The position numbers were made by a program, and so were the translations under genes. From Naegleria gruberi (taxonomy: Eukaryota): a stretch of DNA of 64,000 nt. Shown piece after piece: positions 5,867-64,000 of the stretch (the first letter of the stretch is position 1; every line of letters begins with the position of its first letter). Location: NCBI GenBank assembly GCA_000004985.1, contig GG738854.1. One strand, given 5' to 3'. Under the pieces are notes generated by a model. The model was not told the origin of the DNA and did not search any database. It saw only the letters and a list, made by a program, of their open reading frames with translations.

Positions 5867-6059
5867 TTCGCATATTTAAAAAATTATTCTTTTATATTCT
5901 TACCCATTCAACTTTTCTTGTCTCTTTATGGTTTGATGCTACATTTCAGAACCAACATTCATTCCTTTCTGGCCAGAATAAAAATTTAGAAAGATTATTT
6001 GATGAAATTGTTTACAAATTTAATGTAATCATCAATTTGTTCGTTTCAAAACAAAAAAA

Positions 6060-14943: not shown

Positions 14944-16452
14944 TTACATAACTGGATTTGTAATGATAATGTCAATATCGAAAAGTTGATGGTTTTCTGG
15001 TGATTCATGCAAGTATGTTTTCAGTTTTGCAAGCATTTCCTTCTCACTCTTTGATGTAAATATTGGGAGATATGGTGAGCAAGCAACCATAGTATTCCAA
15101 CCTCCGCATGCAACACAAACAGCTTTCAATTGGATATTTCCCCCAGAGTTGATTTTCATAGAGTCTGGGAATAAATTCATTTCTGATAGAGTTGTTTGAG
15201 TTTTCAAAATTCCTGGTTGATTTTGTTCCTCCTTTGTACTTTGATTGAATCCACTGTGTCCAAACAAGTAAGCTTTACCTTCAGAATCAAGAGCTGCTGA
15301 GTGATAACCTCCACAACTCACTTGAACAATATTCTTGAAATTTTTGTGTTCAAATAAACGACAATCCTCAGCACCACTCTCGGATTTTCTATTGAGACAA
15401 TTATATTGATTTCTTCCGCATGAGTAGACCACCCCTTCCTGAGTAGTAAATAAGGTGTGATAGTAACCAGAGTCAGCTGTCACTACTTTGTGATTAAATC
15501 CTTCAACCTTTTTTGTTGTATGCTTTCCATTTGCTGATCCAAAAAGCATATGACCCAATTCACCACAAGCATAAACTTCTCCCTGATCAGTAATGAAAAA
15601 ACTATAGTCATAACCACCAGATGCAGAAATTAATTTAGGGATTCCAGTGATTTTAGTGATAGCTCTTCCAAAACCTTGCCCACAACAGTAGGCATTTCCA
15701 TCAAAACTTACAAAGATTGAATGATAGTAACCTGCGTGAATGGATCTGATCTTTTCAGGTATATCAATCTTGTGTGTCAAACCTTTGTATCCTTCACTCA
15801 ATTGACCATGAGAGTTATCTCCACAGCCGTACACATCACCTTCCTTGGATAAAAACAATGTAAAGTAATATCCACAAGATGCTTGAACAATAAAGTGAGG
15901 AATTAATTCAGAAAAAATTTTAAAATCTTTCAATTCACTTTCTGATCTATCAACTCCGACCTGACCATTAGAATTAGAACCACAGCCCAATGCAAATCCA
16001 TCTTCAGTAATTGCAATAGCTTCTGTATAGCCCATAACGACTGAACTAATCTTGAATGGTGATCGAATATATGCAGGATTCTCAGCATCAGAAATTGCGA
16101 TCCAATTATCACCAAGGCCTCTCATCGAACTAGTTTCACCAAAACTAAACAAAACAGCTTGGGAAGCTTCCAACAGAGAGAAGGATGTTGGTTCGGATTT
16201 ATCGTTACGATAGGCTATTCTAGCTTTTATCATTTCTTTAAATTTAGCAGTATAGAAAGTAGCCTGATCTTTACGAAACTTGGTATCTTGACTTTGATAG
16301 GAGGCATCAATGTGAGGAATACTCATACTAGGAATAATTCCAATAGCACCAAATGATTTGGATTCACCTTGAAGACCACCCGATCCATTGTTTGAAGTTT
16401 CGGTTGATGATTTTGGTTTCTTCTTGAAAATGTTGGTGACGAAAGAAAGCAT
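14944..16452 (-). CDS. RCC1-repeat (regulator of chromosome condensation-like) protein.
   Basis: Repeated RCC1 signatures: GCGSNSNGQVGV, YGCGDNSHGQLSEG, YACGELGHMLFG, YSCGRNQYNCLN, VSCGGYHSAALDSEGKAYLFGHSGFNQ. Confidence 0.8.
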   Translation of the reverse strand: MLSFVTNIFKKKPKSSTETSNNGSGGLQGESKSFGAIGIIPSMSIPHIDASYQSQDTKFRKDQATFYTAKFKEMIKARIAYRNDKSEPTSFSLLEASQAVLFSFGETSSMRGLGDNWIAISDAENPAYIRSPFKISSVVMGYTEAIAITEDGFALGCGSNSNGQVGVDRSESELKDFKIFSELIPHFIVQASCGYYFTLFLSKEGDVYGCGDNSHGQLSEGYKGLTHKIDIPEKIRSIHAGYYHSIFVSFDGNAYCCGQGFGRAITKITGIPKLISASGGYDYSFFITDQGEVYACGELGHMLFGSANGKHTTKKVEGFNHKVVTADSGYYHTLFTTQEGVVYSCGRNQYNCLNRKSESGAEDCRLFEHKNFKNIVQVSCGGYHSAALDSEGKAYLFGHSGFNQSTKEEQNQPGILKTQTTLSEMNLFPDSMKINSGGNIQLKAVCVACGGWNTMVACSPYLPIFTSKSEKEMLAKLKTYLHESPENHQLFDIDIIITNPVM

Positions 16453-25647: not shown

Positions 25648-26340
25648 TCTACTAGTGTTCTAGGCTACTTTTCAGGCAAAAGACATTTTAGGCTATTATT
25701 TGATGGACAAAAGTTCTTGGTGTTGCCTTGTATGTATTAATAACACCGAACAAATACACGTTCCATTATTTTCCACCATTAAGAAAAAATATTTCAGCCC
25801 AAACACACATTGGGAACACTTTGGTGATTTTCAGAGTGATTTCACCCCATGAATCCACCAAACTTTCACATCATCATCTCAACATCATCCTAATAGTATT
25901 ACTGGTAGTATTTTTTATTATTGGATTGTGATTATAAATTTGGAATTTAATTTTCACTTGGGAAAAATTCAAGTTGGTAAACCATCATCGGAACAACTTC
26001 CAACCATCATCATTGTTATTTATCATCATTATAATAGTAATATTTGTGGAAATAAATCTGATAATAGTAATATTTTAGTGAAATTCAATATTTTCACTAA
26101 AATCATCATCACTGCCAGATTCATATGGTAATTTGGAAAACTTTCAATCTAGTATTGTTCAGCATGGTCGATTCCATCAGGTAAAATCACTTCCGAACAT
26201 TTTCCTATTGGTTATCATCATGATAGGTTCATGTATATTTTCAACATGTACATGGACCATAACTCAACATGTACTTCACCAACTTGGAAAATGTCTTTCA
26301 TAACTACTATTCAAATACATAATAAACAATATATTTATTA
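25648..26340. repeat. Dispersed non-coding repeat, copy A. Identical to the sequence at 63401..64000 and related to the interior of the TIR element at 46372..47784.
   Basis: 25691..26300 matches 63401..64000 base for base (checked over several lines). It contains (CATCAT)n-like tracts. The ORFs over it (25728..25931, 25928..26131) are rejected as spurious. Confidence 0.8.
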
Positions 26341-27340
26341 TCAGTTTTTCATCATTTTGTTGTTTTACCAACTTCGGAATATTCATGATAACATATCATG
26401 ATTCATGCCAAAAGTACATAGCCAAACTTCTTGAAACATTAATAAACTGTTATTAGTATTATTGTAGATGTACCATATCAAATATTTCGTTTTATTTCGA
26501 TGAGATCATAAAGATCTTAAATTTCTCTCTAAACATGCAAGTTCTCAGCCTAACCAGATGTTCACCATGTCAAAACATCAAAATAATAAATTTCATTGTA
26601 CTTTTGTATCACACATTAATTTATTGTGTTAAATTCATTGAATTGGAGATTTTAAATTTTTAAAAACTAATCTGTGATTATTTACCAATTAAATATACTT
26701 CTTTAATACTTGATAATTCATAAAATCCTAGTAGATATTGAATAGGTTCATAAAACAAGATATTACACATAATGGCTCTAAATTCATGCTAATAGAGCTT
26801 GTTTAATGAGACTTATCATATTAATGATATTTCCTACCTTAACAGATAAGTGTTGTCTAATTGGATTCTATTTGTGCAAGGCCTAATTCCATCCCTAATA
26901 TAGCAGACTTTTAGGGATGGATAATTTTAATGGAATCTATCCTAGAAGTATTTTTCGCCTGGAAGGTTCATACCAACGAATTTAACTGCCTGGGTCTTCA
27001 TGCGAGTTTTTATCGCCTATAACAACTAGTTCGGCTTCAGACATTCTCTCCTCGGTTGTTGGTCTAAATGACTACTCAGTATATGTGTTAAATTAATTAA
27101 GGAATTGGATGAAGTATATTAAGCCAAGAAATTTCATGAACCAAACAGCTTGGGATCTCACTAACATTTAAAGTCAACCTGGAAACTTGTTCAGCCTCTC
27201 ATTAACCTCAAACCTTACTCAATGCACACAATTCACAATCGGCTGCAATTCAAGTAATACTTGTTTAGTAAAATATTAACTCCGACACTATCTCCTCTAA
27301 TCGACTACAATGTAAATTCAATGAAAAGATTGAAAAAGCT

Positions 27341-28024: not shown

Positions 28025-28332
28025 AAACTATTGGAAATGGCATGAGCTGTTAGAACATTGCTTTTTTGATTGTAAACCTTTCCATCGTGTGTAGTGGAAA
28101 GTCAATATTCTCGGCGAACTGTTAATTATTGTGTTACTTTTTACAATTGCTCGTTTCCTAATATTCTTCACGACTTTACAAATTTTTCTTGGTAGATTAA
28201 AAAAGACTGAGATTAAAGGTATCAAATGTTTAGGTTGCACAATTATGTTCTTAGAATTAGTTTGATTTTTATTCCCTTCAGCAGTTAACATAGTCAGTTC
28301 AGGCAGCCAAAAATCCAAGATAAAATTGCAAC

Positions 28333-28405
28333 CGCCCCACGTGGGGCTCGAACCCACGACCGTTGGATTAAAAGTCCAACGCTCTACCGACTGAGCTAGC
28401 GGGGC
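28333..28405 (-). tRNA. tRNA-Lys(UUU).
   Basis: GCCCCGC-TA-GCTC-AGTCGGTA-GAGC-G-TTGGA-CTTTTAA-TCCAA-CGGTC-GTGGG-TTCGAGC-CCCAC-GTGGGGC-G. All stems pair, with one G-U pair in the acceptor stem. The ORF 28028..28423 translates this tRNA and is spurious. Confidence 0.9.
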
Positions 28406-28711
28406 TGCTCGACAATAATCCAAGGTGGGTCAATTTACAGGAATAGCTCACCAACAAAGGTCCAAGAAATGATTCTATTGAATTTTTGAATTTTTAACAT
28501 TAAAAAAATTACTATCCTCATATTACCTACAACACAACAAGAAATGTGTTACCTTAGATTATCACAATATGAATGAACTATTATTGTAAAAGAACATTAT
28601 CGAACATCCGAGCATCAAATACAGATATAAATCCTTTCTGTTCATATTCCTCCTGAGCCACAAAACATACACAAAAAAAACAAATCAACATTAGAAGGCT
28701 TTTTCATCACG

Positions 28712-33600: not shown

Positions 33601-36600
33601 TCAATGTAACGTGCCAGTATCACTGTTGGAATTTTGGTAATTATTAAAATTATGTAATGATTGGAGAGGAATCAATCGGGGGAGATCATCGATTTTTTGA
33701 CATTGTGATTGTAATTCTTCCAATAAATCAATAATTTCAATAAATTCAGGTCTTTGTGAGGAATCCTGAGCCCAACATCTTTCCATGATTTGAACATATG
33801 ATTCTAAAAATCCAATAATTTCACTTTTTCCAAGATTTTCGATATGTTTCTTTGTAAAATTGTGTTCAATCCACTCATCAATTTGTTTTTCACTGAATGA
33901 TTTTGCATGCAACAGTTCTGGCCTGTGTCCTTTTGCAACTCTCATCAATATTTGGAAAACAGTTGTAGAGTTATCAATTTCATTTGAAAATGGTAATATT
34001 TCATATAATAGCTCCCACATTATTACTCCAAATGAATAAACATCCACTTTTGTGCTTTTACCTTTGTGATTATCTGAAAGTAATTCCTATAAAACAAAGT
34101 TCAACAAATCTATTTTCAATAGATACTTACAGGTGCCTATTGTATTTGTTAATGAATTCACAATAAAATACTTCCAAACTTACCATATAGAGTAAAGTTC
34201 CAACATTTGAGGTCATGGTTGCTGAATTGTTTGAAACAATTTTGCTCAATCCAAAATCTCCAACTTTTGCGTTCATAATCTTGTCCAATAAAATGTTCCC
34301 TGGTTTCAAATCTCTGTAATATTTTTGTTTAGGATAGAGTAAAACTCATAACATACCTGTGAATGATTTTGTGAGGTTTGATAGAATGTAAATATATCAA
34401 TCCTTTGGTGATATCAATCAAAATTTTAAGCTTGGTCTCAAATCTCATAATTTCTCTTCCTATTCTTGAGTTATAAATTGCCTTTTCTAGACTTCCATGT
34501 TCCATATATTCAACAACCATATATTTTCCATTGGTTGTGAGCGAAACTCCATAACAACTGACAATACAGGGATGTCTCAATGAGCTCATTAACATTGCTT
34601 CATTCTCAAACTCCTCATCATTTGAATCAGTTTTCAATTGTTTGATGGCAACATCAGTTCGATTCCACTTGGCATGGTAGATCATGCCCATTGCTCCTTC
34701 ACCAACTCTTTTTAGAATATTAATTTCTGATATTGGAATAATGTATTGTTGTCGTTTTTTTTGTGAATTAAGGATTTCCTTAGTATTAGAAGAATCTATT
34801 CCACTGTTAATACTATTTGAAGATATTAGTGGGGTGAATTCACTCTCAAATATAAATTCATTATCTGTAAACTTCCTTTCAATTTCCTTTTCAGCACGTT
34901 CTTGCTTCCTCAATTTCAACAATTTTCTTGTTATGAATATTCCTGCGTATAAAACTGCTCCAAATATAATTAAGAGTGAAATGAAACCTAATATTGCAGA
35001 GGTTAAAATAATTGCTATTGGAGAATATTCACAAATATAACCATTATCAAGCTTGTTTAAAATATAACTGTTTGGGCATGGAAGTATTTTCACTTTGACA
35101 ATTTTCTCAATGTCTGGAGTTACTATGATTGATAGAGAAAATTCTTTGGATATTTGACTTGGAAATATTTGCAAGCTCACTAATATTGTACGATTGTCAA
35201 ATAGATTATTTTGAGAAACAGTTCCATCTTCAATATTCGTTGGTCGAATAATCAACATATTCGGTTCCATCAATGATGAGGCAGTTTGATTGTAAAGATC
35301 TTTCACTAATACATTCATCTTGAATGATTCTCCAGGGTATATTTCAAGTTCATTGCCATTTTCTGTATTTCTTTCAAATTGAACTTCAACAGTTTGCAAA
35401 GGTGTCGCCACATTATTGCCATAGCATAGAGCATTATTTCCAACTATTATTTCGCCATTAACGGTCAACTGAGAGTAAATGCACCCTCCAGCATAAGCTG
35501 CAAGATTATTTTCACAAATTATATTCTTAATATAGGGAGTTACCGTGTTTATCCACATGGCCCCACCATTTTTTGCCGAGTTGTCATTAAAGGTAGAGTC
35601 AGTAAAACGAATTGAGCCAAATAATTTAGTTGTTTCAACATAAATTGCTCCACCTAAATCAGCAGTGTTTTTGGTAAATTGTGAATTTCCAATGTCTAAA
35701 TCTGTTCCATAAAGATAGAGTGTAGATCCTTTGCTTCCACCTGTATTTTCAATAAATTTACAATTTGTAATGGAAAGTGAATAGGACAACATTGTTTGAT
35801 CAAAAAATTCTAATAAAGCAGTGCCTGTTGTGAGTCTATTTTCAATAAACAAGCTATTGCGTATAAGTATTGCGATAATGCTAATAGAAGGATTATCTGT
35901 AAAGGATAAAAACCTTCCCCTATTATTTGAAACTAGACAGTTATTAATTGTTAAGGAGTCAACCATTTGTAATGAAAGCAACGCATTAGAGGCTGTATTA
36001 TTTTTAAAGGAACTGTTTGAAATTAGTATTCCAGAAATGCCAATCATTTGAAAGAGCATGTAATATTCAGTGTTTTCAATAGTTACTCCATTCAATTCAA
36101 TATTATCCAATGATATGAATAAAGCATTTGATAATACAGTAGAATTGATAATTGAAACTCTATTTCCAAGATTGAATTTCGAGATGGTCAGTAAGGAGCT
36201 TAATTTTGAGGTCCAAATAGAATTACCAATAGTAAATGTCTCAAAATTATCCATGTGAAAAACTCCATTAATTCTGCAATTATTAAATAGAACTGTTTTA
36301 GAATTTTTCAAATTAATAATTACTTCCATATTAGTGTTGAAAACGAATAGGTTTAATACTCCCACAATACTGAAATAATAATAAAAATTACAATCAATAA
36401 TCTCCAATTTTCGAATTTCCGAATGCATGACGACTGCATCTCTTGTTGTGCAATTTAACAATTTGAAATGTTCAATTCCATTATATAGTAAGAATTCCCC
36501 ACCAATGAATCCAAACTCTATTGTAAATGCATCAATAATTGCGTATGCCTGTAAATTGCCACGAGTAGTGAACAATTGCTTGTCCTTTCCTTTCCATATC

Positions 36601-37040
36601 ATTTCGAATCGATTTGCGTATTTGGAAAAATCGAAATTTGTTTCATAGCTTCGCATAAGTCCATTAATTACAATCACCATTGTGAAATTATCCAATTTTT
36701 TACCTTGATTAATTATTTCTGCCAATTCATTGTTTGCTGCTTTTACAATTTGACTCGGAGAGGAACATGGTTGATGCTCATCCCTACACGTTGCATTCAA
36801 ATCATCAACATTAGGAAATTCAGAATCTAAATAATAAATAGCTGAATATGATGATGAATTAATTGTATTGTTGGCCATTACATATTGATGATGCTCTTGT
36901 TCTTGTGGTTGGAGTACTACTACTAATTCATTATTAGCTAATATCGACTCGGACTTTGTTATTATCATCATTATCATCATCATAATAATTAAAAGCCTAA
37001 TAAATCTAAGAACCTCCGAAGAGGTGGTTATCTTGTGCAT
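33601..37040 (-). CDS. Receptor-like TKL kinase with a Pmp-like beta-helix ectodomain. Exons: 37040..34357, 34313..34184, probable 6-nt micro-exon 34136..34131, and 34086..33601.
   Basis: Signal peptide MHKITTSSEVLRFIRLLIIMMMIMMIITKS. Ectodomain repeats: GGAIYVET, GGAMWINT, GGCIYSQ. TM: IAIILTSAILGFISLLIIFGAVLYAGIFI. Kinase: VGEGAMGMIYHAKW...VAIK, HR|DLKPGNILLD (intron 34314..34356, 43 nt), DFGLSKI, GTLLYM|AP|ELL, DVYSFGVIMWE. Confidence 0.8.
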
Positions 37041-37328
37041 TTTGTTTTTCAATTTTTGAATTTGATTATCCGTCGGAAGCCTTCATATTCTCTTTCTCTC
37101 TCTAGCTGTGTATTAAGATGGATTCAATAGATTGTCTGATAATTTCTTGAAGTTATCTTAAATTGTAATAGAATTTGTGCTTATTGAAATTTTTATTTTT
37201 TAATTTTATTTGATGATTCGGAAAGTTTTTTTAAAAAAAACTTGCTGCTTTAATTATTATTGAATCCTTAATTAGCCTTGAAAACTTTGAAAGTTCTCCT
37301 GTCAGAGCATGTCAACCCATCAAAAAAA

Positions 37329-40339: not shown

Positions 40340-43300
40340 TTAATTCATAAGAATGGAAGAACACTTATTGAGCTTGTCACAAATTTCTGCAAATGAAGGT
40401 CTTTCAACGTCCTTGTCCCAACATTTTGTCATTATTTCACACAACTCTTTCACAACAAGGGCAAGCTTCATCTCTGAATTACGAGAAGATCCAAAAATTC
40501 CTCCCTTCTCATTTTCCATCAAAAAGGAATTGACATATTCCTTCAATAAAGGATCCAATTGTTGATATCTTCTTGAAGATGAACTAATGTGATCACTGCC
40601 AGTACCTTGGAAGGAGAAATTCTTCTTGATTCTAAATGGAATTATTGGTCTCAATCCATTCACAATCTCTGTTGTAATTGAAATCATGTTAAAGTTAGGC
40701 AAGGTAATAGAATCAATTTGCTCAATATCAATGTTTGATTTCACGAGAGGAGAGTCATTTCTAAGTGGTTCCTTTTCCAATTCCACATCATCAATATTAC
40801 TATCTTCATCCAAATTAATTGGTTCGTAAGGTTTCACATTAATAAGATTCTTGTGCTTGACCATAAAATTCTTCATGGCTTCAAAACTTTCGGGACTGTA
40901 GGCACGTTCTTCAAAGAGCAATTCCCACATGATAATACCAAATGAGTAACTGTCACACTTTTCTGAATAGTCCTGACCTAAAATGAGCTCTGGAGGCATG
41001 TAAACTGGTGTGCCGATGGCTGATGTGAGTACACTTGCAGAGTCTTGAGTAAATTCTCTTCCTAATCCAAAATCACAAATCTTGGCAACATTATTTTCAG
41101 AGATGAGAATATTTTCAGGTTTGAGATCTCTGTGAATCAATGGTGGATCTAAACTATGCAAATATTTCATACCATACGCAACATCTAACAAGTAATTGAG
41201 CTTTGTTGCCAGGTTGAGTGGGGTCTTTTTCTTTTTCGAGTCGTGAATCTTCTTTCTCAATGTACCTCCACTCAAATATTCAATGACAATGAACCGATCA
41301 CTTGGTGTAATTGCAATTCCATAGAAAGTAACAATATTTGGGAATCTGAGAGTACTGAGAATATAAGCTTCCTTTTCAAAAGTAGAGTTGATTGTGTCTG
41401 TTTCTGCTTGATTGTCTTCATCATATTGAGTAATGTCAATATTAATTCTCTTGACAGCTACAGTGTTATTCATCCATTTAGCTAAAAATATTACTGATTC
41501 ACCACCTTGGCCAATTCTTTCAACAATTTGCAGGTCTTCAGGTTTGATAATCCAACTCTTATCTTGATTGAAGGAGCTATTTCCTGCTGTATCATCGTGC
41601 AAACTGTGTTTGGAAGAAATAAGTTGATATTGGAGTAATCTCTTGTGTAAATCTTCTTCTGCTTGTTCTCTCTTCTTTAATTCTTTGAGTTTCTTTTTGA
41701 AGAAGTACAAACATAATGTGGTTAATAAAATGATAAAGGTCAAACCAAGGGCAACAATAACACCGAGTGAAATGAGTAATGCATTTTGAACTGCTGAATT
41801 GAAAATACATGCCTGATCATCTACACTGTAATCAAAACTGAAAGGACAATTTGGTTCAAGGTTGACTGGGAAGTAAAATTGTTGAATAACATTCTTACAT
41901 TTAAAGTAAAGAATTAAGGTTTGATTGAGTTGTCCTTTCACTTGTACGTTACTGAAAATAGCTGTATCATTTGAGAAGGTTGTAGAAACGTGATTCTTGT
42001 AGTCTTCTGTGTTGTTAATATTAGTTGTGAAAACCAAATCAATATCTGCATTCTTGATGCTTTCCATTCTTTCATTGAACAAGTCAAACGAATCCAAGGT
42101 TATTTTCACAAATTGACCTGCATATAAATTAAAACCAGTGTACTTTTTCAAGAGAAGAGACTTGAATATACTAAGAGGAAAATCGTACGGAGTATCCTTT
42201 GGTTCCCATCCATTACTAGAAAGAGCAAAATACTTTGGATCAGAGGCATAATTGTCTCCATAAAGTTCAGCATAATTATCGTCAAAAAAAGCAGTCTTGA
42301 ATTGGCTGGCAATACGCATACTGGTTGTTCCTACGAGAAATACAGCACCTCCAGAGTTTTCTGCTCTATTGTGAAGGAAATTAATATTGCTAAATTGGAA
42401 TTTTGAATTTGGATAATCAATGTTATACAAGTACATTGCTCCACCATTGTCTGCCTTGTTATAGCTCAGAGTGATATTAGAAACTGTAGTAGAAACAGAT
42501 GAAGGAGTGAAGAGAATTGCACCTCCCATTCCTTCTTTCACTGGATTGTGGACAATTCTATTGTACTGAAATAAGGAATCTTGGATATTCAAATTAGTTA
42601 AACCATAGGCAAATACAGCACCTCCTCCTGGAGCTTGCTCAGAGTAGGCCTCTTCAGGTTTGTAAATAATTACATTTTGACTAAATTTAGAACTTCTCAC
42701 ATCCAATAAATCTCCTCTCGACACGTAAATTGCAGAACCACGAATACTGGCAACATTACCTTCAAAAGAGGAATCCTTCAAAATGAGCGAACTCCTTCTC
42801 TCTCCATAAATACCGCCAGCTCTTCCTTGTCGTGCTAGTCCATAGTTGAAGCTACTTCTCTCCACAAATGAGTATGTACTTGATTTGAGATAGAGAGCAC
42901 CTCCATATCCATCACAGGTACTGTTAAATAGAGTTGAATCGTTCAGGAAAAATTTTCCCTTCTCAATAAAAATAGCTCCTCCATCGTACTTGGAATAACA
43001 TTTAGAGAATGTGGAATAGGTAATACTTGAATAAGGAATATCCAAATACAAACATCCACCAGAATCTTGACTTGTTGCTGTTTCGAATTTTGAAGTTGTA
43101 ATTGATACAGATCCACTCTCAGAAGTGACATAGATAAAACCACCAAATGAAGAGAGGGCAGTATTGTAACCATCAGAAAATGTGGAGCGTACCAATGTGA
43201 AAACTCTATCAGTAACTCGTTCGCTTTGATCTGAAATGTAGATTGATCCTCCATGTCTCAAAGCAGTATTTCCCTTAAAATTACAACGTAAAACACTCAA

Positions 43301-44928
43301 CTTCAATGTGTTTGAATTAATGGCTGCTCCAAACTGGGCACTATTATTAATAAACTGTGAATCAATAACCTTCAAACTGTCTGATGCTATCTCTGAAAAT
43401 TGTTGCAAGTCCAAATAACGAACTGCAGATGCACTGCTCGTTCCCTCAAAAACACATCCAATAATGGATCCATTCCTCACATTTTGTAAGAAGAGAGCTC
43501 CACCATCATTGTCCAAAAATTTTGTACCAACCACAGATGTAGCTTGTGAATCAGCAATAGCAAGAACAGGTAACGTGCCCATATTACTATTTTCCATAAA
43601 GGCAGAGTTTGCAACCAACACAATGTAATAATTTTGAATGGAAACAAAGTGACAGGTTGTGTAACTGAATTGAACATTGGTAATAAAAGCACTAGTACCT
43701 GTCAATGACTCACTACTCTTAACTTGTAAACTTCCAGTAGCATTAAAGTTGGTATCAGAGATTTTAACTTTGGAACACGTTGCACAAGTCATGGCACCAA
43801 CACTGTAACACTGACTTCCAGTGCAATTTGTTGCAAAATTGCTCTTCTCAATTGTGAACTGTCTAGCTGTGTGTCCAAAGATGAAATAGTGTTTTGGTGA
43901 TGTGGATGTGCACTTTTGAGTTGAGGCACCAAGATCTTTACTTTCATCCAAACCAATTGTTACATAACTGGATGCAACATTGAGTGTAAAGGAAACATTT
44001 CTGAATAAAGCTTCACAATTATTATCCAATTCAAAATCAATATATGATTCAGATGGTCCTAAATTCCTCACCACTTGCAAATTTTCATAAAAACAAGTGC
44101 CACCTGAACATTCAACATAAGAATCGACCAGTTTAGAATTTCTAATGACAATATCTGGTTGCCAAGTTGCCGAAAACACATCAAACATTCGATTCAACTT
44201 GTTCATCTCCACCTCTTCAAATATAACTCTTGTTGTGTAAATACTCGAAACATAATCATTCTCTACTGCAATCACAGCATTAACATCCCAATTTACAAAG
44301 GCAATATTGGTGAATGATATTTCCATTTTGAAAGGATTGATTCGTATAAAGGGAGAATAATCAGCACATGAAATGAAAGTCTTTGACAATCCATAAAAGT
44401 TGGCAATAATCTTGCTTTGGATAGCCTCTGAATTGTTATAGTATGGCAAGTCAATTGCACAATTATTACTACCATCACTCACATCTATATTATTCAATAA
44501 ATAAATATTTAATTCTTGTTCTTCCGCTATTATTACATGATAATAATTATAATAGTATTATTAGTATTAATTTACATATGATGATGATTATTATTAATTT
44601 ACATGATGATCATTAATTTACATTGAAAATCAACAAAATTACTATTCGCATATATAAAAACAAACTACCTACCTGTACTAGTCGTATTGAACAGCACACT
44701 CCACCTCTCCAGTACATATTTTAGTGAGTTACATGGCTGAGAAGGGGTAGAACAGGGAAAGAAGTTATTGTTACTGCTGCTACTAGCCTTCGGATCAATG
44801 TAGACACTACTCATTATCTTGGCAATTGTGGTGTTGATGGTCAAAATGTTGAGAAACGATAGCACCACGAGGATAGAAATCAATCGCCACACCTCATGAT
44901 CCCTTCGGGTCATCATTGAATGTCTCAT
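40340..44928 (-). CDS. Receptor-like TKL kinase of about 1460 aa with a Pmp-like beta-helix ectodomain. Exons: 44928..44673 (signal-peptide exon) and 44484..40340.
   Basis: Exon 1: MRHSMMTRRDHEVWRLISILVVLSFLNILTI...NTTST. The 188-nt intron is 44485..44672 (GTAGGT...ATATAG). Ectodomain repeats: GGALFLQNVRNGS, HGGSIYISD, DGGAIFIEKG, YGGALYLKSS, GGGAVFAYG, GGAILFTPS, NGGAMYLYN, SGGAVFLVG. TM: ALLISLGVIVALGLTFIILLTTLCLYFF. Kinase: IGQGGESVIFLAKW...VAVK, HRDLKPENILIS, DFGLGREF, GTPVYMPPE. Confidence 0.85.
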
Positions 44929-45126: not shown

Positions 45127-46206
45127 TTAATGCTTGTCTGTGATGAGATAGGATAATTGGAGAGCTTCGTTCTCTGTTAAAATTCCATCACCATCCAAAT
45201 CGTAAGGTGAGAGAACTCCCTTGCAAATGTGGTAATGTGTCTCCACTTCAGAGACTTGTATTTTACCTTCCACTTTCAATTGTTCAATTGATTTTCTGAC
45301 TCTCTTTTTCCATTCTTCCAATTCATGCAAATCTTCAATATTAGGAATGCTTAGCATTTGGTATTGATTCATTTTGGAGAAACCAGTTTCTGTTTTCTCA
45401 TGTCTGAACTTTTCCAAATCTGCTAAAAAATCCTTCTTCACCATTGATATGGGTGGAGATTCTACATTATCAATATAATTGCTCAATTTTGGAATTACAT
45501 CCTTCTTCCACTGATCAACTGACTTGTTCATTACTTCTTCGTATAATTGTTTGAAAATCCAAGCTTTGATATTTTGTCGAACAAGGTATTGAGGGTGAAT
45601 TAATAAATCAAAAACAGTTTCCAAATCCAACTTGTTGAGATAAACTGCTGCATAGGCAACACAAGCTCTATTACTCAGAAGTGAGTCCTTTGTTTCTATA
45701 TTTATGAGATTTCTCAAGAGTGGTTTAATTTCCTTATCTATCACAACAGTTTGACATCCTACACAAGCACTTAATTTCAAGGCATAATTTGGTGTATCAA
45801 TTGAACTGTTTGGCAATTTAAGGGCTCTTTTGATCATATCTGCTCTCATTGTTTCCGAAAGAATAACAAACGGATTCATCAGTAAATTACAAAGAGATTG
45901 GAAAGGATAAAATTCATTATCAGAAGATTCTGGCAATTTTCTAGTTCCTCTCAAATCAGCAGATATAAACCCGTGATCTATTATTTGCTTGAAAATATCC
46001 TCATGGTCTTGTAACGTTTCCTTCGTTAATCCTCTCCTCAACTTTTGCATATTATCAACATCTCTTGCCCTCAAAAATCCCATAACACTCTCCTCACAAC
46101 CACTTCCAAGATCCGACAAGTTTGCTCCCGAAGAAAACATTGATAAGGAATCACTCACCGACGATGATGACGTTAAGTGTTCGCTGTTATTGTTATTGTT
46201 GCTCAT
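45127..46206 (-). CDS. Hypothetical protein with a C-terminal EF-hand.
   Basis: Canonical EF loop DLDGDGILTENE near the C-terminus. Poly-N N-terminus. ATG at 46206. Confidence 0.6.
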   Translation of the reverse strand: MSNNNNNSEHLTSSSSVSDSLSMFSSGANLSDLGSGCEESVMGFLRARDVDNMQKLRRGLTKETLQDHEDIFKQIIDHGFISADLRGTRKLPESSDNEFYPFQSLCNLLMNPFVILSETMRADMIKRALKLPNSSIDTPNYALKLSACVGCQTVVIDKEIKPLLRNLINIETKDSLLSNRACVAYAAVYLNKLDLETVFDLLIHPQYLVRQNIKAWIFKQLYEEVMNKSVDQWKKDVIPKLSNYIDNVESPPISMVKKDFLADLEKFRHEKTETGFSKMNQYQMLSIPNIEDLHELEEWKKRVRKSIEQLKVEGKIQVSEVETHYHICKGVLSPYDLDGDGILTENEALQLSYLITDKH

Positions 46207-46313: not shown

Positions 46314-46371
46314 CAATGCCAATTTTGTAGGTTGCCATAAATCCAATAAAATTCATGGAATTAAAGAAATT

Positions 46372-47784
46372 AGTGTGGCCGGAAAGATTTCTGGCTGGGG
46401 TATTCTAGGAAAGAGTTTCTTAAAGAAATCTTTCCTGGAAAATCCAGTAAGCAACATAAAAATGGAAGCAATGCTTCCTTAATAGTTTTGAGTCCGAAGC
46501 TAATTGCACAGTTTTGAGCCTCAAAGACATCAAAAGAATATTCACAGCAAACTCAACAAAGAAGTACCTTGCATTCATAAAAAATATCAATTTTATGAGT
46601 AGCTTATTTTCGGAGTGGTTCTTCATCTTCCCACTCCAAGAATTGAACCTCATCATCTATACATCATCAATATAATAGTAATAATAGTAGTTTTATGTGG
46701 AAGTTTATCGTTATGGAATTAGATAGTAATTTTGATATTGGAAAAATTCAAGTTGGTGAATCATCATCAGAACACACACCAACCATCATCATTAATTTTT
46801 ACCATCATTATAACAATAGTATTTGTAGACTTTAATTTGAGAATAGTATTATTTTGACAAAAGTTAATTTTTCACTAAATTGGCCAATATCTTCCGATGT
46901 ACTGGACCATTATCAGAAATTCAAATGTGGGATTATTTGTAATAGTATATAGCAATACATATTCGAGTTTCATAGATTGGAATTTTGTTTTCATCAAGAT
47001 AGGTACATGTATATATTCAAAATAATATTGACCATATTTCAACATGTACTTCATCATCAACCAAACTTTCTTCGAATAGTACCATTCAAATACTTCATCA
47101 ACAACACTCCGAATAATAGTTTTTGGATATTTGGAGTTTTCACCTTGTTGGTGGTGTATTCATCATTCACCATATATTTTCATCATGATGATTGAATTTC
47201 AACAACATAGTATCATTAGTAGGGATGTCTAATATCACCATCAAGAGAGTTGGAATTTTTCCACTTAGTATTCATAGAGTTGTGGAATTTTCACTTCATC
47301 ATATCTTTTATCATCAATATCATCAGCAAGTCCACTTCCGATCATTAAGGTAAATATCTTAATGGTCATCATCATCACACCATCAATAAAATTCACTAAT
47401 GGTGAATTTTCCAACAAGGTAAATTTCAAGGTCGTAAATCTTGCTGATTTTCCACCTTGAATTATTTCAATAATTAAATAAAATTATATTTTTATTATTA
47501 GCATTGTGTTTTCTTGTAGCAACATCTGTTTTATGTATTCTCCACTTGATTTCATCAAATAAAATAGTAAATTAGAACATGATGTCTTTTCCTAATATCA
47601 TTGGTTTGCTGCTTCAGAACAAAAAATTACAAATTAAGGTGGATTCTTCACATACAGTCACTTTTGCCATTATGGTAACAACTCAAATAAGGATGAATCA
47701 ATATTGTTTACTGGAATTTCCAGGAAACTTTTTTCAGCGAAACTCTTTCCTGGAAAGACCAGAGGAAAAATCTTTCCGGCTACA
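46372..47784. mobile_element. Non-autonomous DNA-transposon-like element of 1413 bp, with terminal inverted repeats of about 72 bp and a 5-bp target-site duplication ATTAG.
   Basis: Left end: TGTGGCCGGAAAGATTTCTGGCTGGGG...AAAGAGTTTCTTAAAGAAATCTTTCCTGGAAAATCCAG. Reverse complement of right end: tGTAGCCGGAAAGATTTTTCCTCTGG...AAAGAGTTTCGCTGAAAAAAGTTTCCTGGAAATTCCAG. These are about 75% identical. Flanking ATTAG sits at 46367-46371 and 47785-47789. The interior (about 46690..47100) is about 75% similar to the 25900..26330 and 63600..64000 repeat. There is no long ORF. Confidence 0.7.
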
Positions 47785-47919
47785 ATTAGGAAAGATTACA
47801 ATTTGTGAATTTTGAAAGTGTGAAAAGAGCAACTTAATGGTCAACCAAGAATGAGGAACTGGCTGCCAAGATCGGTCACATGTCAATAACTTGAATCATG
47901 CAAAAAACATTAAAAAAAA

Positions 47920-52712: not shown

Positions 52713-55700
52713 TTACATGAAAAGTGGGCTATCATCACATAATCTGGCAATTTCATACAAATGTTGGATAATTTCCTCAAAGCTTGGTCTTTCATTTGGG
52801 AGCTGATGCCAACACTGTTGCACTAGTTTGATATACTTGGAAACACCTTCAACAAATAGATTGCTGTTCTCATTATTGATTGGTTGAATAAATAATCTTG
52901 TCCATTCCTTCAATTGTTCATCATTTGAGAAGGGAATGTTTGGTCTTTTTCCTCTCACTATCTGGGTAATAACTGTTAGACTGTTACAATCTGACATCTC
53001 TGTAAAATAGTTCATCTTTTTGTGATTGTGAGTCGTATAAGGAACTTCTTCAAAAAAGAGTGACCACATAATAATTCCAAACGAATAGACATCAATCTTG
53101 GATGCATTCTTGATTCTTTCCTCTTTTGATAAGGAAGATCCTCCAAATGTACCTGATCCAATTGATGAATTACTATTCATATTTGAATTGGAATAATGGA
53201 TGGAGTCGGTAGCGTTTGAGAATCCAGAGAACTGTTCATTTTCAAAAAGCTCAGAATTATTAGAAACTCCAGAATCAAAATTCTCTGGAAATATTTGTTT
53301 AACACAGTGAAACTAGAATAAAACTTACCTGGAGGGCAATATAGAAGTGTACCAATGTTCAATGTCATACTAGTTTCAAACATGTTATTTCCAACAATTC
53401 TTGAAAGTCCAAAATCACAAATCTTTACACAATTTTTATCATCAAGAAGTACGTTTGCAATTTGAATGCCAGAATTCAATAAATTGTAATATAAATTACA
53501 TACCTGGTTTCAAATCACGATGACAAATCATATTTGGTTTAAGTGAATGCAAATAGGACATTCCTCTACTCACTCCCATCAAAATATCCAATTTCTGTTT
53601 CATAGTCAACTTTTGGCGACCAACTTTGCATTCACTGATTAGTTTTTCCAAACTACCTCCTTTCATGAATTCAATCACCATATATTTCTGGTTCTTGTTT
53701 GGAACACAAAAACCGTACATTGTAACTATTTCATCTTAAGTTATTTGAAACATAGGGGAATATTACATACCAATATTAGGATGTCTCAAACTAATTAAAA
53801 GTGCTCCTTCTCGTTCAAAAACATCTTCGTCATCTTGGTCCTTGATTGATTTAATTGCTACTTCAATTCCTTTCCATAATCCTTGATAAATCATTGATTG
53901 ACCTCCTTCTCCAATACGTTTCTGAATTGTAATATCCTCGGTTGGAATAATAAATGACGCCTTACTGTTAGGTCTATCCTCAGACTCTTCGAAAATAATC
54001 TTCTTATCAAGTAATACCCTTTCCATTTCAGATTCAGCTCTGGTTCGTTTTCTCAGTAGCTTTGATTTGTATCTAGCAACACAAAGTCCAATTAATCCAA
54101 TACAAGTGGTAATCAATGTCACTGCTGCTAAGCTTGTGACTAGAGGGAGAATGTAAAAAATGTTCACACAACCTGGTGCCTCATATCTATAGAAAGAAGG
54201 GCAAGAATCGAGAATAATATCCACCGTATAAGTTACTCTCTCATAGGTTACTGAAAGCTGCACACTTCTTGCTTCCTTGACTTCAGAATTTGAATACAAG
54301 CTAAAAGGCAGCCTGAAATCAGTATTGTTTGAGGAATCTGTCTTTAAAAACAGACTAGAATCACTAACTTGAAGAGTAATTGGAACCTTAGGTGTTTCAA
54401 TTAATCTTCCAAAAATGTTTCTTGCCTCAATCTCAATAATAAATTTTTGCCCCAAATAGGCTTTTTGAGTACCATTATAAACCGTGTGAGGATTGACATC
54501 AAGCTCAATAACTTTGTACTCAAATTCAAAACAAGGAGAGGAAATAGAGTCGTCATTGTCATAATAGTATTCTTCATTGATATAAATGGACCTATTACTG
54601 AGCACTTCTGAGTATCCAATTTTTCCATATTTTGCAGTGTTTGCATAAAAGACATTACTTGGAGTAATCGTGACCCGTATCTCTTTTGGTGCTTCCCCAA
54701 AGAAAATTACACCTCCCTTCTTTGCTATGTTTCGTTCAAAGTAACTTGTACTTATTTCAGAACTTCCTGTTACATAGAGTGCACCTCCTATGGTGTTTTC
54801 ATTTCCATTTCCAATAAATTTCGAGCCATCCACAGATAACACGTTTATATCGTATTTCGCACGAGACCTATATTCATAAAATATCGCTGAGCCCTTTGGA
54901 GCAACGTTATTGTAAAACTCACAATTCTTGACATGAAAAATAGCACTTGATTCAATATAAATTGATGATGTAGTGCAATTTAAAAATCTGGAATTTTGCA
55001 CAGTAGAAGATTTTTCGAAATAGTCATTGGATGGAATAATAGTATCATACGAAATTACATAATATATTGCTCCATTATAAGCATTTGGTTTCACATTAAT
55101 AAATTCTGAATGATCAACAAGGAAATAATGAATATCTTGCATGTGTAAACAAGTTGCAGAAATGTTGTTACATGACAGGTTTGTAATTTGTAACTCTTTG
55201 CATGTACTGATAAATATCATACTGCCTTGTGTGTTACTGTCATAGACTCTAACATTGTCAATCACTAGTTTGACGATAGAGGATACAAATAGCCAATTGG
55301 TTCCCATTGAAATGTTACTGTTAGTTATGTATGCGTCAATGGAATATCCAATATATAATACAGGATATCCTATTGCAAACGTTCCAATATAATCAATATT
55401 GTCAATAATTATTTCATTAGATTCAATGATTGAAAGTATAGAATCATCTCCAGTATCACACTCAAGTATTTTAACATCATCTACCCTTTCAATGAAGAGT
55501 TTGGCTTTCAGAGCAGAGTTTGTAATTTGCAAAATTCTTGAATTTCCTATAAAAGTATCCCCTCTGATTGTCACATGATCAAGCTCAATAATATCATAGT
55601 TAGCCATTCTCAAGTTTGTATCTGATATATCAACTTGTTGAAATATTGATACAGTTCCTTTTCTTGGTGAAAGAACCATTTGATTATTATATGTAAATTC

Positions 55701-56264
55701 ACCAAATTTCAAAAGTGATGCACTGAATTTACAATTTGTAAATGTTGCTTTGGGTGCACTCGTCAACGACATAGCAACATTGGTAAATCCAATATCTTGT
55801 GCCTCCACTGAAATGATGTTATTTTGATCAGTAAGAAGAGTTTGCCTTCCAACATGACAAACAATTGAGGCCATACCAGAATTCAATCCATTCTCAAATC
55901 TAACTCGATAACTAAAACCAGTTCTCTTATAAAAAGAAGGAACCTGACATTGATTCTCTGCTTGAATCCTAAAAACCACCGAGATAATAGTCTCTCCAAA
56001 CATCATTGTTTTTACCATATTATTCAAATGATTAACAGCACTACTCATATAATTACACAAATACTTTCCAGCACCTCCGGTACATGATGAACTAAATATC
56101 GAACTGATTGTATACTGATAACTCCTTTCCGAAACTCCAAGTACCAAATTATTATTTTCATTAATTATATTAGTACACAATAAAACAACAATGATCATCA
56201 AGTAATAAATTATTCTTGATGAACCCGAAGCGACTCTCCTTCTTGTATTCGTCATCACCATCAT
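52713..56264 (-). CDS. Receptor-like TKL kinase with a Pmp-like beta-helix ectodomain. Exons: 56264..53771, 53725..53504, about 53457..53329, and 53285..52713. The exon 2 to exon 3 junction is non-canonical.
   Basis: Signal anchor MMVMTNTRRRVASGSSRIIYYLMIIVVLLCTNII. Ectodomain repeats: NGAIYYVIS, KGSAIFYEY, GGALYVTGS, KGGVIFFGE. TM: LPLVTSLAAVTLITTCIGLIGLCVA. Kinase: IGEGGQSMIYQGLWKGIEVAIK, HPNI|VTMYGFC (45-nt intron 53726..53770), HRDLKP|ANVLLDD, DFGLSRI, LLYCPPG|ENF (43-nt intron 53286..53328), DVYSFGIIMW. Confidence 0.7.
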
Positions 56265-56707
56265 CGTGTGTCTAGCTTCTTTAAATTTGATGACGGTTGT
56301 GTTGTGGTCAATGAATTGCCGGCATAAAATCTTTGTGAGATTCAAAGACCAAAATTATTTGTGAGATGCAAACACAATTTTTTTCTTCTTGAAAAGAGTG
56401 GAAAATGCGTTGTGAATCTTAATTACGGTTAGACTAATAAGGGGAAATTTTCCGTATTTGGTCCCTTAATAGAATTTATTTTTTGAAAAAGATGGAAGTT
56501 TATTTTAGAAAATGATAAGAAAGGGGTTTTGAAATGTCAATGAAGGGTCATGACAGTATTGAGATAACAGTGGACAGAATCTGTCATCGAATTGACACCT
56601 GGCAGTTTGTTTGAAATGAACAGAGATAAACAAACGGTAAAAAAATGCCTCTCCTTAACAGCTCAACTAAAGATAATGACCTGCAAGCTTCCAGAAATTC
56701 AAAAGCA

Positions 56708-61951: not shown

Positions 61952-63302
61952 GTTGTTATAGTTCTTCTTAATAATAGGGATGAAAATGTTTTTCTATTGG
62001 AAAGAGTTTGATCTTGGCAGGACGAATATCGTGGAGGTGGTTAATAATTATTATATTGGACGAGTTCGTGGAATGGTGTTGAGATCAGAGTAATATACAC
62101 AAGAGAGAGAGAGGAGGAATTAAAGTTGTTTTTTTTGAATGTGCTACTTTATCTCAGTAAGGGTGAGTGTTTAAATTGTGAGGAGGATTACACTGAATGA
62201 TTCGCTTAAATGCAACAACAAACTGCTTACTTGTCTCAATTATCAAGAGAGGTACCACCTAAAAGTACGTTCAAGGAATTGGAGTTAACAGGAGCGCGAG
62301 ATTTGAGTGCAAAAATCTAGCGCTACTGTGTTTTACTGTAATTTTGCACCATTTACTTTGTTTTACAGCGCTTAATTTGTGCATTCAAAATGCTAGAAAT
62401 GATTGTGTCATTGAGTAATGAGTCCAAACGGTTTATTTCAACGGTTAGAGTGGTGGTGTCAAACGAAAATATTATGTGGAGAATCTTCAAACGAAAACAT
62501 TACTTGGAAGAATGATGATATGTAGGACAATCATGATAAGTATTAATGAGTTTTGCAAATAATTGAGTAATGGCTCAATTCTTTGCTCAACTAACGCAAC
62601 AATTAATGGCTTGGTTGTTGAACAAACTCAGGAACACAAGGAACAAGATTATTGGAAGGTTAACTTTATACACTGAGATCTTGCGTTGGAGTTTTTGCAC
62701 CAATTTGTTGCCATTACGGTCGCATATTTTCCATTATTTCACTAGGTGAATCTATTAAGCACACAAAAGATTTTTCACACAATGAAAATTTATCAACATA
62801 TCAAATGAATGAGACAAATACCGTGAGTGGAATCATCAGCTTAATAGTTACAGAAGATTGGACAATTTATTTCTTTGGAAACAAGTGGCTTGGTAATGAA
62901 GTTGGGACAAGATGAAGAAAATTCACCTCAAAAACAAATTTTCCTCATCTGACCGATCTGTAAGGATCAAATGTAATAGGACTATTCCACAAGTTCATCA
63001 TTATCTCCCTCAAGAGCTCTTCAACTGGTCCTTCAGGTACTGGTGTTGTTCCTTCTGATCCTTCTGCTACCATTGCAGAGAAGGGTAAGATAATTTCCTA
63101 TTGTTCTGTCTTTGAGCTTTAGATTTCTTGGTGTTGGATTTGCCATTACGTTGTGGTCTCGAACGTTTTTGAATGGAGGTGAAAGTTTGATGAGTTTGAT
63201 GAGTTGTAGTATGAGCGATCATACAGAGGATGAAGAATTTGAATGAACAACAATAACATGCAGATTATCCAGAAGAATATTGCTTTGCGATGAAGCATCT
63301 TG

Positions 63303-64000
63303 TTCTAGGCTACTTTTTTCGCCTGAAAAACAGGCAAAAAATATTTAGGCCAAAAAAAATAGCCTAAAATGTCTAGGCGCAAAATAGTAGGGTGCTTATT
63401 TGATGGACAAAAGTTCTTGGTGTTGCCTTGTATGTATTAATAACACCGAACAAATACACGTTCCATTATTTTCCACCATTAAGAAAAAATATTTCAGCCC
63501 AAACACACATTGGGAACACTTTGGTGATTTTCAGAGTGATTTCACCCCATGAATCCACCAAACTTTCACATCATCATCTCAACATCATCCTAATAGTATT
63601 ACTGGTAGTATTTTTTATTATTGGATTGTGATTATAAATTTGGAATTTAATTTTCACTTGGGAAAAATTCAAGTTGGTAAACCATCATCGGAACAACTTC
63701 CAACCATCATCATTGTTATTTATCATCATTATAATAGTAATATTTGTGGAAATAAATCTGATAATAGTAATATTTTAGTGAAATTCAATATTTTCACTAA
63801 AATCATCATCACTGCCAGATTCATATGGTAATTTGGAAAACTTTCAATCTAGTATTGTTCAGCATGGTCGATTCCATCAGGTAAAATCACTTCCGAACAT
63901 TTTCCTATTGGTTATCATCATGATAGGTTCATGTATATTTTCAACATGTACATGGACCATAACTCAACATGTACTTCACCAACTTGGAAAATGTCTTTCA
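63303..64000. repeat. Dispersed repeat, copy B. It runs to the window end and is identical to copy A from 63401 onward. Its 5' boundary shares gttctaggctactttt with copy A but then carries an extra 55-bp insertion.
   Basis: Base-for-base identity of 63401..64000 with 25691..26290. The ORFs over it (63428..63631, 63628..63831) are spurious duplicates of those in copy A. Confidence 0.8.

What the first reader, a model, noticed from the sequence alone, without database searches (positions are those of the whole stretch)
46372..47784. MITE-like DNA element with 72-bp TIRs and ATTAG TSD, related to two 100%-identical repeat copies 38 kb apart
The element at 46372..47784 has inverted termini (TGTGGCCGGAAAGATTT...) of about 72 bp at about 75% identity and a 5-bp direct duplication ATTAG. 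Its interior has no ORF. It carries CATCAT-rich sequence about 75% similar to the repeat at 25648..26340 and 63303..64000. Those two copies are base-identical over at least 600 bp, which means recent mobilisation or recent segmental duplication. Copy A sits in the promoter region of the ankyrin gene.
Basis: seen in the sequence. Interest (0 to 1): 0.5.

Follow-up and report, generated by a model that had tools for sequence, protein, structure and literature searches.

The report
Non-coding DNA transposons in Naegleria gruberi
The flagged 1.4-kb stretch is a real, non-coding mobile-element insertion between two Naegleria gruberi genes, and the two "identical repeats" are copies of a sister element with the same insertion signature; this is an ordinary kind of genomic parasite, though poorly catalogued in this organism.

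Summary
The window is the Naegleria gruberi NEG-M reference genome. Element E (46374-47784, 1411 bp) has 84-nt terminal inverted repeats (63/84 identical). Its ends read TGTGG...CTACA, and it is flanked by a 5-bp direct repeat, ATTAG. It has no coding capacity. It fills most of the spacer between two divergent genes; without it the spacer would be about 297 bp.

New here: repeat "A" is itself a complete element (25656-27024, 1369 bp). Its ends read TGTTCTAGGC...GCCTATAACA and it has its own 5-bp duplication, ACTAG. Copy B starts at 63301 with the same terminus but a different flank, so A and B are separate insertions, not a segmental duplication. A and B are 100% identical over 605 bp up to the window end. 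A and E share a roughly 560-bp core (69% identity) at the same offset.

Best reading: two related families of non-autonomous cut-and-paste DNA transposons, one of them recently active. TGT...ACA ends plus 5-bp duplications fit an integrase-type DDE transposase (Ginger2/TDD-like). No transposase could be linked, because N. gruberi DNA outside the window was unreachable. Solo LTRs are the main rival. This is a new member of a known kind, of low to moderate interest.

The parts
46369..46373 (.). Left copy of the 5-bp target-site duplication ATTAG of element E
   Evidence: Read directly. It is identical to 47785-47789.
46374..47784 (.). Element E: a 1411-bp non-coding element bounded by inverted repeats, with ends TGTGG...CTACA
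   Evidence: The 17-nt tip occurs only at these two ends in the window.
46374..46457 (+). Left terminal inverted repeat of E. It has three conserved blocks (1-17, 31-47, 58-84) and an internal palindrome built on GGAAAGAKTTTC.
   Evidence: DNA fold z-score -5.0.
46602..47163 (+). Core of E homologous to elements A and B (about 69% identity), CATCAT-rich
   Evidence: BLAST. nhmmer E = 9.5e-39. Global-alignment z = 24 against shuffles.
47701..47784 (-). Right terminal inverted repeat of E
   Evidence: DNA fold z-score -4.3.
47785..47789 (.). Right copy of the 5-bp target-site duplication ATTAG of element E
   Evidence: Read directly.
25651..25655 (.). Left copy of the 5-bp target-site duplication ACTAG of element A
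25656..27024 (+). Element A: a 1369-bp non-coding sister element. Its termini are TGTTCTAGGC...GCCTATAACA (9/10 inverted). AGGC occurs 3 times in the first 40 nt and GCCT 4 times in the last 145 nt. It lies 122 bp upstream of the ankyrin gene's ATG.
   Evidence: No Pfam hit passes threshold.
27025..27029 (.). Right copy of the 5-bp target-site duplication ACTAG of element A
   Evidence: The pattern 'reverse complement of the left tip + left flank' has 1 match in the window, against 0.02 expected.
63301..64000 (+). Element B: a second copy of the A family, cut off by the window end. It has the same tip, TGTTCTAGGCTAC, but a different left flank (CATCT). It carries about 55 extra nt near the tip, including a 28-bp tandem repeat. 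From 63396 on it is 100% identical to A.

Best explanation
E, A and B are insertions of two related families of non-autonomous cut-and-paste DNA transposons in the Naegleria gruberi genome.

Proposed mechanism: a transposase made elsewhere in the genome binds the element tips (TGT...) and the repeated subterminal motifs. In E that motif is GGAAAGAKTTTC, present in both orientations within each 84-nt TIR. In A and B it is YAGGC, with three or four copies at each end in inverted orientation. The transposase excises the element and inserts it through a 5-bp staggered cut. Repair of that cut yields the flanking duplications ATTAG and ACTAG.

Shown: the inverted termini, the two independent 5-bp duplications, the lack of coding capacity, the shared core at the same offset, the different flanks of A and B, and their 100% identity, which suggests recent copying.

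Inferred: the enzyme. TGT...ACA ends together with 5-bp duplications are the signature of retroviral-integrase-like DDE transposases. Among eukaryotic DNA transposons this best matches the Ginger2/TDD group, whose Dictyostelium members TDD-4 and TDD-5 make 5-bp duplications.

All three insertions lie in gene-upstream intergenic DNA (E and A about 120-170 bp from the nearest start codon; B's neighbouring gene is uncertain). That may reflect target choice, or simply survival of harmless insertions in a compact genome.

Graded confidence: mobile-element insertion about 0.9; TIR DNA transposon rather than LTR about 0.7; Ginger2/TDD-type transposase about 0.4.
For: - Organism: the window ORFs are exactly EFC47643.1 and EFC47635.1 of N. 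gruberi NEG-M, on a 665-kb scaffold.
- E has an 84-nt TIR, a 5-bp TSD and no ORF or Pfam domain.
- A has 10-nt inverted tips plus an ACTAG TSD. The predicted 15-mer is unique in the window, against 0.02 expected.
- The A and B flanks differ right at the shared tip.
- A and B are 605/605 identical.
- The A-E core homology sits at matching offsets: A 168-731 against E 229-790.
- Subterminal motifs are symmetric. In A, AGGC lies at positions 7/19/35 and GCCT at 1226/1302/1333/1360, against a background of 1.1 per kb. In E, GGAAAGA and TCTTTCC are mirrored at the two ends.
- Each TIR of E has a significant internal palindrome.
- Removing E shrinks the divergent-gene spacer from 1713 bp to about 297 bp.
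- Literature: Ginger2 termini are TGTNR, TIRs are 50-180 bp, TSDs are 4 bp, or 5 bp in TDD-4/TDD-5, and targets are AT-rich (PMC2836005; PMC10045372).
Against: - No transposase or integrase domain occurs in any window ORF of 110 aa or more.
- A Ginger2/TDD profile search returned 116 proteins, none labelled Naegleria.
- No other copy of the E tip was found. Every metagenome hit checked (82 of the 120 stretches are listed by the tool) was a chance match that does not extend beyond about 33 nt. A six-frame protein search with the E ends found nothing.
- A's strict TIR is only 10 nt, shorter than the 50-180 bp reported for Ginger2.
- A's tip, TGTTC, does not fit TGTNR on one side.
- The A and E tips are unrelated in sequence apart from TGT, although their interiors are homologous. 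This is the reverse of the usual pattern in DNA-transposon families.
- TG...CA ends plus a 5-bp TSD also describe solo LTRs.
Confidence: 0.65

Rival explanations
1. E, A and B are solo long terminal repeats (B possibly the 5' LTR of a full element) of Gypsy- or Copia-like retrotransposons. They would have been left behind by LTR-LTR recombination and originally inserted by a retroviral-type integrase.
For: - The ends are TG...CA (TGTT...AACA in A), with 5-bp TSDs, lengths of about 1.4 kb, no coding capacity and promoter-proximal positions.
- A's strict inverted tip is only 10 nt, as is typical of LTRs.
- LTR/Gypsy elements are reported in the sister species N. lovaniensis (PMC6125883).
Against: - E has an 84-nt inverted repeat with three conserved blocks and nested palindromes at both ends, for which an LTR has no known need.
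- A has mirrored clusters of AGGC/GCCT motifs at its two ends, as expected for transposase binding sites.
- No reverse transcriptase, RNase H or integrase ORF occurs anywhere in the 64 kb.
Confidence: 0.2
2. A and B are products of a segmental duplication or gene conversion (or an assembly artefact) rather than of transposition. The E inverted repeat and its ATTAG flanks are a chance or structural feature of a divergent promoter.
For: - 100% identity over 605 bp is also what a very recent duplication, a conversion tract or a collapsed assembly would give.
- The region is known to be represented twice in the assembly, with a 99%-identical protein on a 43.7-kb scaffold.
Against: - A/B similarity begins exactly at the TGT tip and the flanks are unrelated.
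- A is bounded by its own TSD.
- The E TIR has self-BLAST E = 2e-9 and a matching 5-bp TSD.
- Three elements share the same end and TSD logic.
Confidence: 0.04
3. The elements belong to a DNA-transposon group other than Ginger2/TDD. This could be an undescribed superfamily, or a eukaryotic IS3/IS481-like lineage that also uses TGT...ACA ends.
For: - The TGT ends and short TSDs are shared by IS3/IS481-related eukaryotic elements (PMC10045372).
- No Naegleria Ginger2-like protein surfaced.
- Most N. gruberi repeats are unclassified (PMC12344493).
Against: - IS481EU makes 4-bp or 15-bp or longer TSDs.
- Other superfamilies I recalled without testing here have different TSD lengths or tips. Transib, for example, makes 5-bp TSDs but has CACNNTG tips.
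Confidence: 0.1

Closest known systems
[quoted passage not shown]
   Same: - The tips are TGTNR (E: TGTGG and TGTAG).
- The TIRs are tens to hundreds of bp (E: 84 nt).
- The TSD is 5 bp, as in TDD-4/TDD-5.
- The target sites are AT-rich.
- Transposition would be cut-and-paste, with non-autonomous derivatives possible (PMC2836005).
   Different: - No integrase-like transposase has been linked.
- Family A has only a 10-nt strict TIR, and its TGTTC tip breaks TGTNR on one side.
- The targets ATTAG and ACTAG differ from the RTATAY preference reported for animal Ginger2.
- The group is not reported from Heterolobosea in the papers I could search.
Solo LTRs of Ty3/Gypsy or Ty1/Copia retrotransposons
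   Same: The ends are TG...CA (TGTT...AACA in A), the TSD is 5 bp, the size is 1.4 kb, the sequence is non-coding, and the position is upstream of genes.
   Different: - E has a long multi-block inverted repeat.
- A has mirrored subterminal motifs.
- No internal retroelement sequence is nearby.
MITEs (miniature inverted-repeat transposable elements)
   Same: They have TIRs and a TSD, no ORF, lie close to genes, and depend on a transposase supplied in trans.
   Different: At 1.37-1.41 kb they are about twice the usual upper size for MITEs. High copy number has not been shown.
Transib
   Same: The TSD is 5 bp.
   Different: Transib tips are CACNNTG (from my own knowledge). The tips here are TGTGG and TGTTC.

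Membership tests
Ginger2/TDD | Termini follow 5'-TGTNR | tested here: met
   E has TGTGG and TGTAG. A has TGTTA on the right but TGTTC on the left, which fails at the fifth base. The criterion is from PMC2836005.
Ginger2/TDD | TIRs of about 50-180 bp | tested here: inconclusive
   E has 84 nt at 75%. A has only 10 nt of strict TIR, plus mirrored AGGC motifs.
Ginger2/TDD | TSD of 4 bp, or 5 bp as in TDD-4/TDD-5 | tested here: met
   ATTAG for E and ACTAG for A.
Ginger2/TDD | Mobilised by an integrase-like DDE transposase (H2C2 zinc finger + rve core, no reverse transcriptase) carried by an autonomous copy with the same termini | not testable with these tools
   - There is no such ORF in the window.
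- N. gruberi DNA outside the window could not be fetched.
- A profile of nine Ginger2/TDD cores gave 116 hits, none labelled Naegleria, but the search is word-seeded and most hits are unnamed.
MITE (operational class) | Short, usually under about 800 bp | tested here: not met
   1411 bp and 1369 bp.
MITE (operational class) | TIRs, a TSD and no coding capacity | tested here: met
MITE (operational class) | Many copies in the genome | not testable with these tools
   Three related copies lie in 64 kb. The metagenome scan and the translated search found no further copies.
Solo LTR of an LTR retrotransposon | TG...CA ends with a 4-6 bp TSD | tested here: met
Solo LTR of an LTR retrotransposon | Full-length relatives exist with two direct LTRs flanking gag/pol, a primer-binding site and a polypurine tract | not testable with these tools
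   Copy B runs off the window after 700 bp. There is no RT, RNase H or integrase ORF in the window.
Transib | CACNNTG termini with a 5-bp TSD | tested here: not met
   The TSD length fits, but the tips are TGTGG and TGTTC. The tip consensus comes from my own knowledge.

The most novel reading that the evidence does not exclude
These are the first recognised integrase-type (Ginger2/TDD-like, or a new TGT...ACA/5-bp-TSD lineage) cut-and-paste transposons in Heterolobosea/Discoba. At least one family would have been active very recently and would insert preferentially about 100-170 bp upstream of start codons. If so, the 'TE-poor' N. gruberi genome would carry a substantial unclassified load of such elements: at least 5% of this window, against 0.28% classified genome-wide.
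Probability: 0.2. Interest if true: 0.4.

Novelty: new member of a known kind. Interest (0 to 1): 0.22.

Why it matters
The element is an ordinary kind of thing, a non-autonomous transposon, so the intrinsic surprise is low. There are three modest points of value.

- N. gruberi repeats are largely unclassified in published work. These elements give exact boundaries, TSDs and tip motifs that would let curators define two families.
- If the TGT...ACA/5-bp signature reflects a Ginger2/TDD-like transposase, it would extend that integrase-related group to Discoba. That bears on how ancient the link between DNA transposons and LTR integrases is.
- The 100% identical A and B copies, and the insertions into promoter-proximal DNA of a compact genome, suggest current activity and possible effects on neighbouring genes: the ankyrin gene, and the divergent pair around E.

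Tried and rejected
1. Metagenome scan with the 17-nt E tip. It returned 120 stretches, 82 of which are listed by the tool. All those compared with the element were single chance matches that do not extend beyond about 33 nt.
2. Fetching N. gruberi DNA, including the 43.7-kb allelic scaffold, for an empty-site test. Four exact-protein look-ups returned nothing.
3. Syntenic loci from N. lovaniensis (L001) and a Naegleria-like Logan assembly (L002). The 213-aa neighbour gene and the kinase gene are absent there, so the insertion site is not comparable.
4. Exact look-up of element-internal ORFs in the protein collection: none present.
5. A six-frame concatenated translation of both E ends used as a protein query, to catch ORFs called on other copies: no hit at E <= 10.
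6. A Ginger2/TDD profile built from the supplementary alignment of PMC2836005: no Naegleria-labelled hit.
7. Trying to read TDD-4-like TIRs from a Dictyostelium locus (L123). This was swamped by A/T low-complexity inverted repeats and abandoned.
8. Rfam at permissive thresholds on E and A. It gave only sub-threshold miRNA-like hits that reflect the palindromes inside the TIRs.
9. Other superfamilies were rejected from the sequence. Alternative boundaries giving TA, TTA/TWA, TTAA, 8-bp or 9-10-bp TSDs do not give symmetric termini or matching flanks.
10. Literature searches for Naegleria transposons, MITEs or Ginger elements found no description of these families.

Full report
**What the window is**

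The ORFs are long, closely packed and eukaryotic in content: receptor-like protein kinases, NHL/EGF, RCC1, ankyrin, RWP-RK and ubiquitin domains. GC content is about 33%.

The 359-aa ORF at 45127-46206(-) is exactly EFC47643.1/XP_002680387.1. The RCC1 ORF at 14944-16452(-) is exactly EFC47635.1. Both are from Naegleria gruberi strain NEG-M, on a 665,159-bp scaffold.

A second scaffold of 43,759 bp carries a 99%-identical copy of the 359-aa protein, with 355/359 residues identical. This is probably an allelic haplotig.

**Checking the observation**

- **Inverted repeat.** The repeat finder reports arms at 46374-46457 and 47701-47784, 84 nt and 75% complementary. Ungapped, 63 of 84 positions match, including 16 of the first 17. 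The pair is the only inverted hit of its kind in a self-BLAST of the window (E = 2e-9). The 17-nt tip occurs nowhere else in the 64 kb.
- **Blocks within the repeat.** Conservation falls in three blocks, at positions 1-17, 31-47 and 58-84. Each arm also holds its own internal palindrome built on GGAAAGAKTTTC. The DNA fold z-scores are -5.0 and -4.3.
- **Target-site duplication.** The 5 nt just outside the two tips are both ATTAG, at 46369-46373 and 47785-47789. From base composition the chance of this is about 0.2%.
- **Alternative boundaries.** Boundaries that would give TA, TWA, TTAA, 8-bp or 9-10-bp duplications do not give symmetric ends.
- **Coding capacity.** The longest ORF touching the element is 78 aa. 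None of these ORFs matches Pfam even at E <= 1. Rfam finds nothing above threshold.
- **Genomic position.** The element sits between two divergently transcribed genes. It is 167 bp from the ATG of the 359-aa gene and 135 bp from the ATG of a 213-aa gene. Without the element and one TSD copy, the spacer would be about 297 bp instead of 1713 bp.

**The two "identical repeats"**

Positions 25696-26300 and 63396-64000 are 605/605 identical. The match ends only because the window ends.

Upstream of the identical stretch, the two copies share an exact 17-mer, TGTTCTAGGCTACTTTT, at 25656 and 63301. Between that 17-mer and the identical part, copy B carries about 55 extra nt, including a 28-bp tandem repeat and small palindromes.

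Outside that 17-mer the flanks are unrelated...CTCTACTAG in A...GAAGCATCT in B.

I searched downstream of A for the reverse complement of its tip and found GCCTATAACA at 27015-27024, followed immediately by ACTAG. These are the same 5 nt that precede the left tip at 25651-25655. The predicted 15-mer (reverse complement of the left tip plus the left flank) occurs once in the whole window on either strand with up to 2 mismatches. Shuffles give 0.02 expected.

So copy A is a complete 1369-bp element with TGT...ACA ends and its own 5-bp target-site duplication. Copy B is a separate insertion of the same family that runs off the window. This argues against a segmental duplication.

**How E relates to A and B**

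BLAST gives 69% identity over about 460-470 bp. nhmmer extends the homology to A positions 168-731 against E positions 229-790. The shared core therefore lies at the same offset in two elements of nearly the same length.

The outer segments align only marginally better than shuffled sequence (z = 2.5 and 3.9, against 24 for the core). The tips share little beyond TGT.

A has short strict inverted tips (9/10) but mirrored motif clusters. AGGC occurs at positions 7, 19 and 35. GCCT occurs at 1226, 1302, 1333 and 1360. The window background is 1.1 per kb for each.

I read E and A/B as two diverged sister families of one kind of element.

**What kind of element**

The features shown are typical of a non-autonomous cut-and-paste DNA transposon:

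- inverted ends with repeated subterminal motifs;
- no ORF;
- a fixed-length target duplication at two independent insertions.

TGT...ACA ends with a 5-bp duplication are the signature of retroviral-integrase-like DDE enzymes.

The Ginger paper describes Ginger2/TDD elements as follows: TGTNR tips, 50-180-bp TIRs, AT-rich targets, and 4-bp TSDs, or 5 bp for TDD-4 and TDD-5 of Dictyostelium (PMC2836005). A later paper gives the same summary (PMC10045372). E fits all of these. A fits the TSD and, on one side, the tip rule.

This is a match of signatures, not a tested membership.

- No transposase or integrase domain occurs in any window ORF of 110 aa or more.
- A profile of nine Ginger2/TDD cores taken from the paper's supplementary alignment returned 116 proteins, none labelled Naegleria. 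That search is word-seeded and most hits are unnamed, so the negative result is weak.

**Main rival: solo LTRs**

Solo LTRs also have TG...CA ends, a 5-bp TSD, a length of 1.4 kb, no coding capacity and promoter-proximal positions. Gypsy elements are reported in N. lovaniensis (PMC6125883).

Against this reading:

- E has an 84-nt, multi-block inverted repeat with nested palindromes.
- A has mirrored AGGC/GCCT clusters.

An LTR has no known need for either feature, whereas a transposase that must bind both ends does. I put the LTR reading at about 0.2.

**What could not be done**

Genome-wide copy number, an empty site on the allelic scaffold and an autonomous partner therefore remain untested.

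- The metagenome scan with the E tip returned 120 stretches, 82 of which are listed by the tool. All those compared with the element were chance matches that do not extend beyond about 33 nt.
- A six-frame translated query of both E ends found nothing.
- Syntenic loci from N. lovaniensis and a Naegleria-like Logan assembly lack the neighbouring 213-aa gene, so the site cannot be compared.
- Literature searches found no description of these families.

Published work notes that only a small fraction of N. gruberi repeats can be classified (PMC12344493). One preprint gives classified TE content as 0.28% (10.64898/2026.06.24.734286). These three elements cover at least 3.5 kb, or 5.4%, of this window.

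**Verdict**

- The element is longer than a classical MITE.
- The "repeats" are themselves elements of a sister family with their own TSD.
- The interior similarity is 69%, not 75%.

This is an ordinary class of feature and a new member of a known kind. Interest is low to moderate. It would rise somewhat if a Ginger2/TDD-like transposase with these tips is found in Naegleria.

Noticed in passing
window 5303-5449 (+) and 5758-5904 (-): An inverted pair of 85-nt tRNA genes lies at 5341-5425(+) and 5782-5866(-), inside 147-nt arms that are 98% identical. Rfam scores each at 61 bits. ARAGORN cannot name the anticodon, possibly because of an intron.
   Followed up: partly
window 28333-28405 (-): A tRNA-Lys(UUU) gene (Rfam 70.9 bits) lies inside a mechanically listed 131-aa ORF (28028-28423), which is therefore probably spurious. 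It is 1.3 kb from the right end of element A.
   Followed up: no
window 45127-46206 (-), and a separate 43,759-bp scaffold of the same assembly: The region is represented twice in the NEG-M assembly. EFC36072.1 on the small scaffold is 355/359 identical to the window's EFC47643.1, and a partial RCC1 protein (EFC36069.1) is there too. This is probably an allelic haplotig. It would be the natural place to look for an empty site of element E.
   Followed up: partly
window 63301-63400: The left end of copy B carries about 55 nt absent from copy A. They include a 28-bp tandem repeat (63326-63384) and small GCCTG/CAGGC and TAGGC/GCCTA palindromes. Downstream of this the two copies are 100% identical, so the terminal region rearranges faster than the body.
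   Followed up: partly
window 26889-26920: The right subterminal part of element A has a 10-bp-stem hairpin, CCATCCCTAA ... TTAGGGATGG. It contains the CCCTAA/TTAGGG hexamer in both orientations.
   Followed up: no
window 24-2615 (+), 33601-37052 (-), 40340-44497 (-), 52713-56345 (-): There are several paralogous receptor-like protein kinases with large Chlam_PMP / beta-helix-type N-terminal regions. Some kinase domains are split across adjacent ORFs, presumably by introns. Weak DNA similarity links 1719-2324 with 53004-53690.
   Followed up: no
window 2665-3459 and 3973-4762: These are tandem paralogous segments, 66% identical over about 800 bp, on the minus-strand ORFs 3202-3765 and 4031-4834. 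One has a weak ASC (amiloride-sensitive channel) Pfam hit below the cut-off.
   Followed up: no
window 25656, 46374/47784 and 63301 relative to neighbouring start codons: All three insertions lie in gene-upstream intergenic DNA. A is 122 bp from the ankyrin ATG. E is 167 bp and 135 bp from its two divergent neighbours. B is about 80 bp from a possible minus-strand ATG at 63222. This could reflect promoter targeting or survivorship in a compact genome. With only three cases it is no more than a hint.
   Followed up: partly
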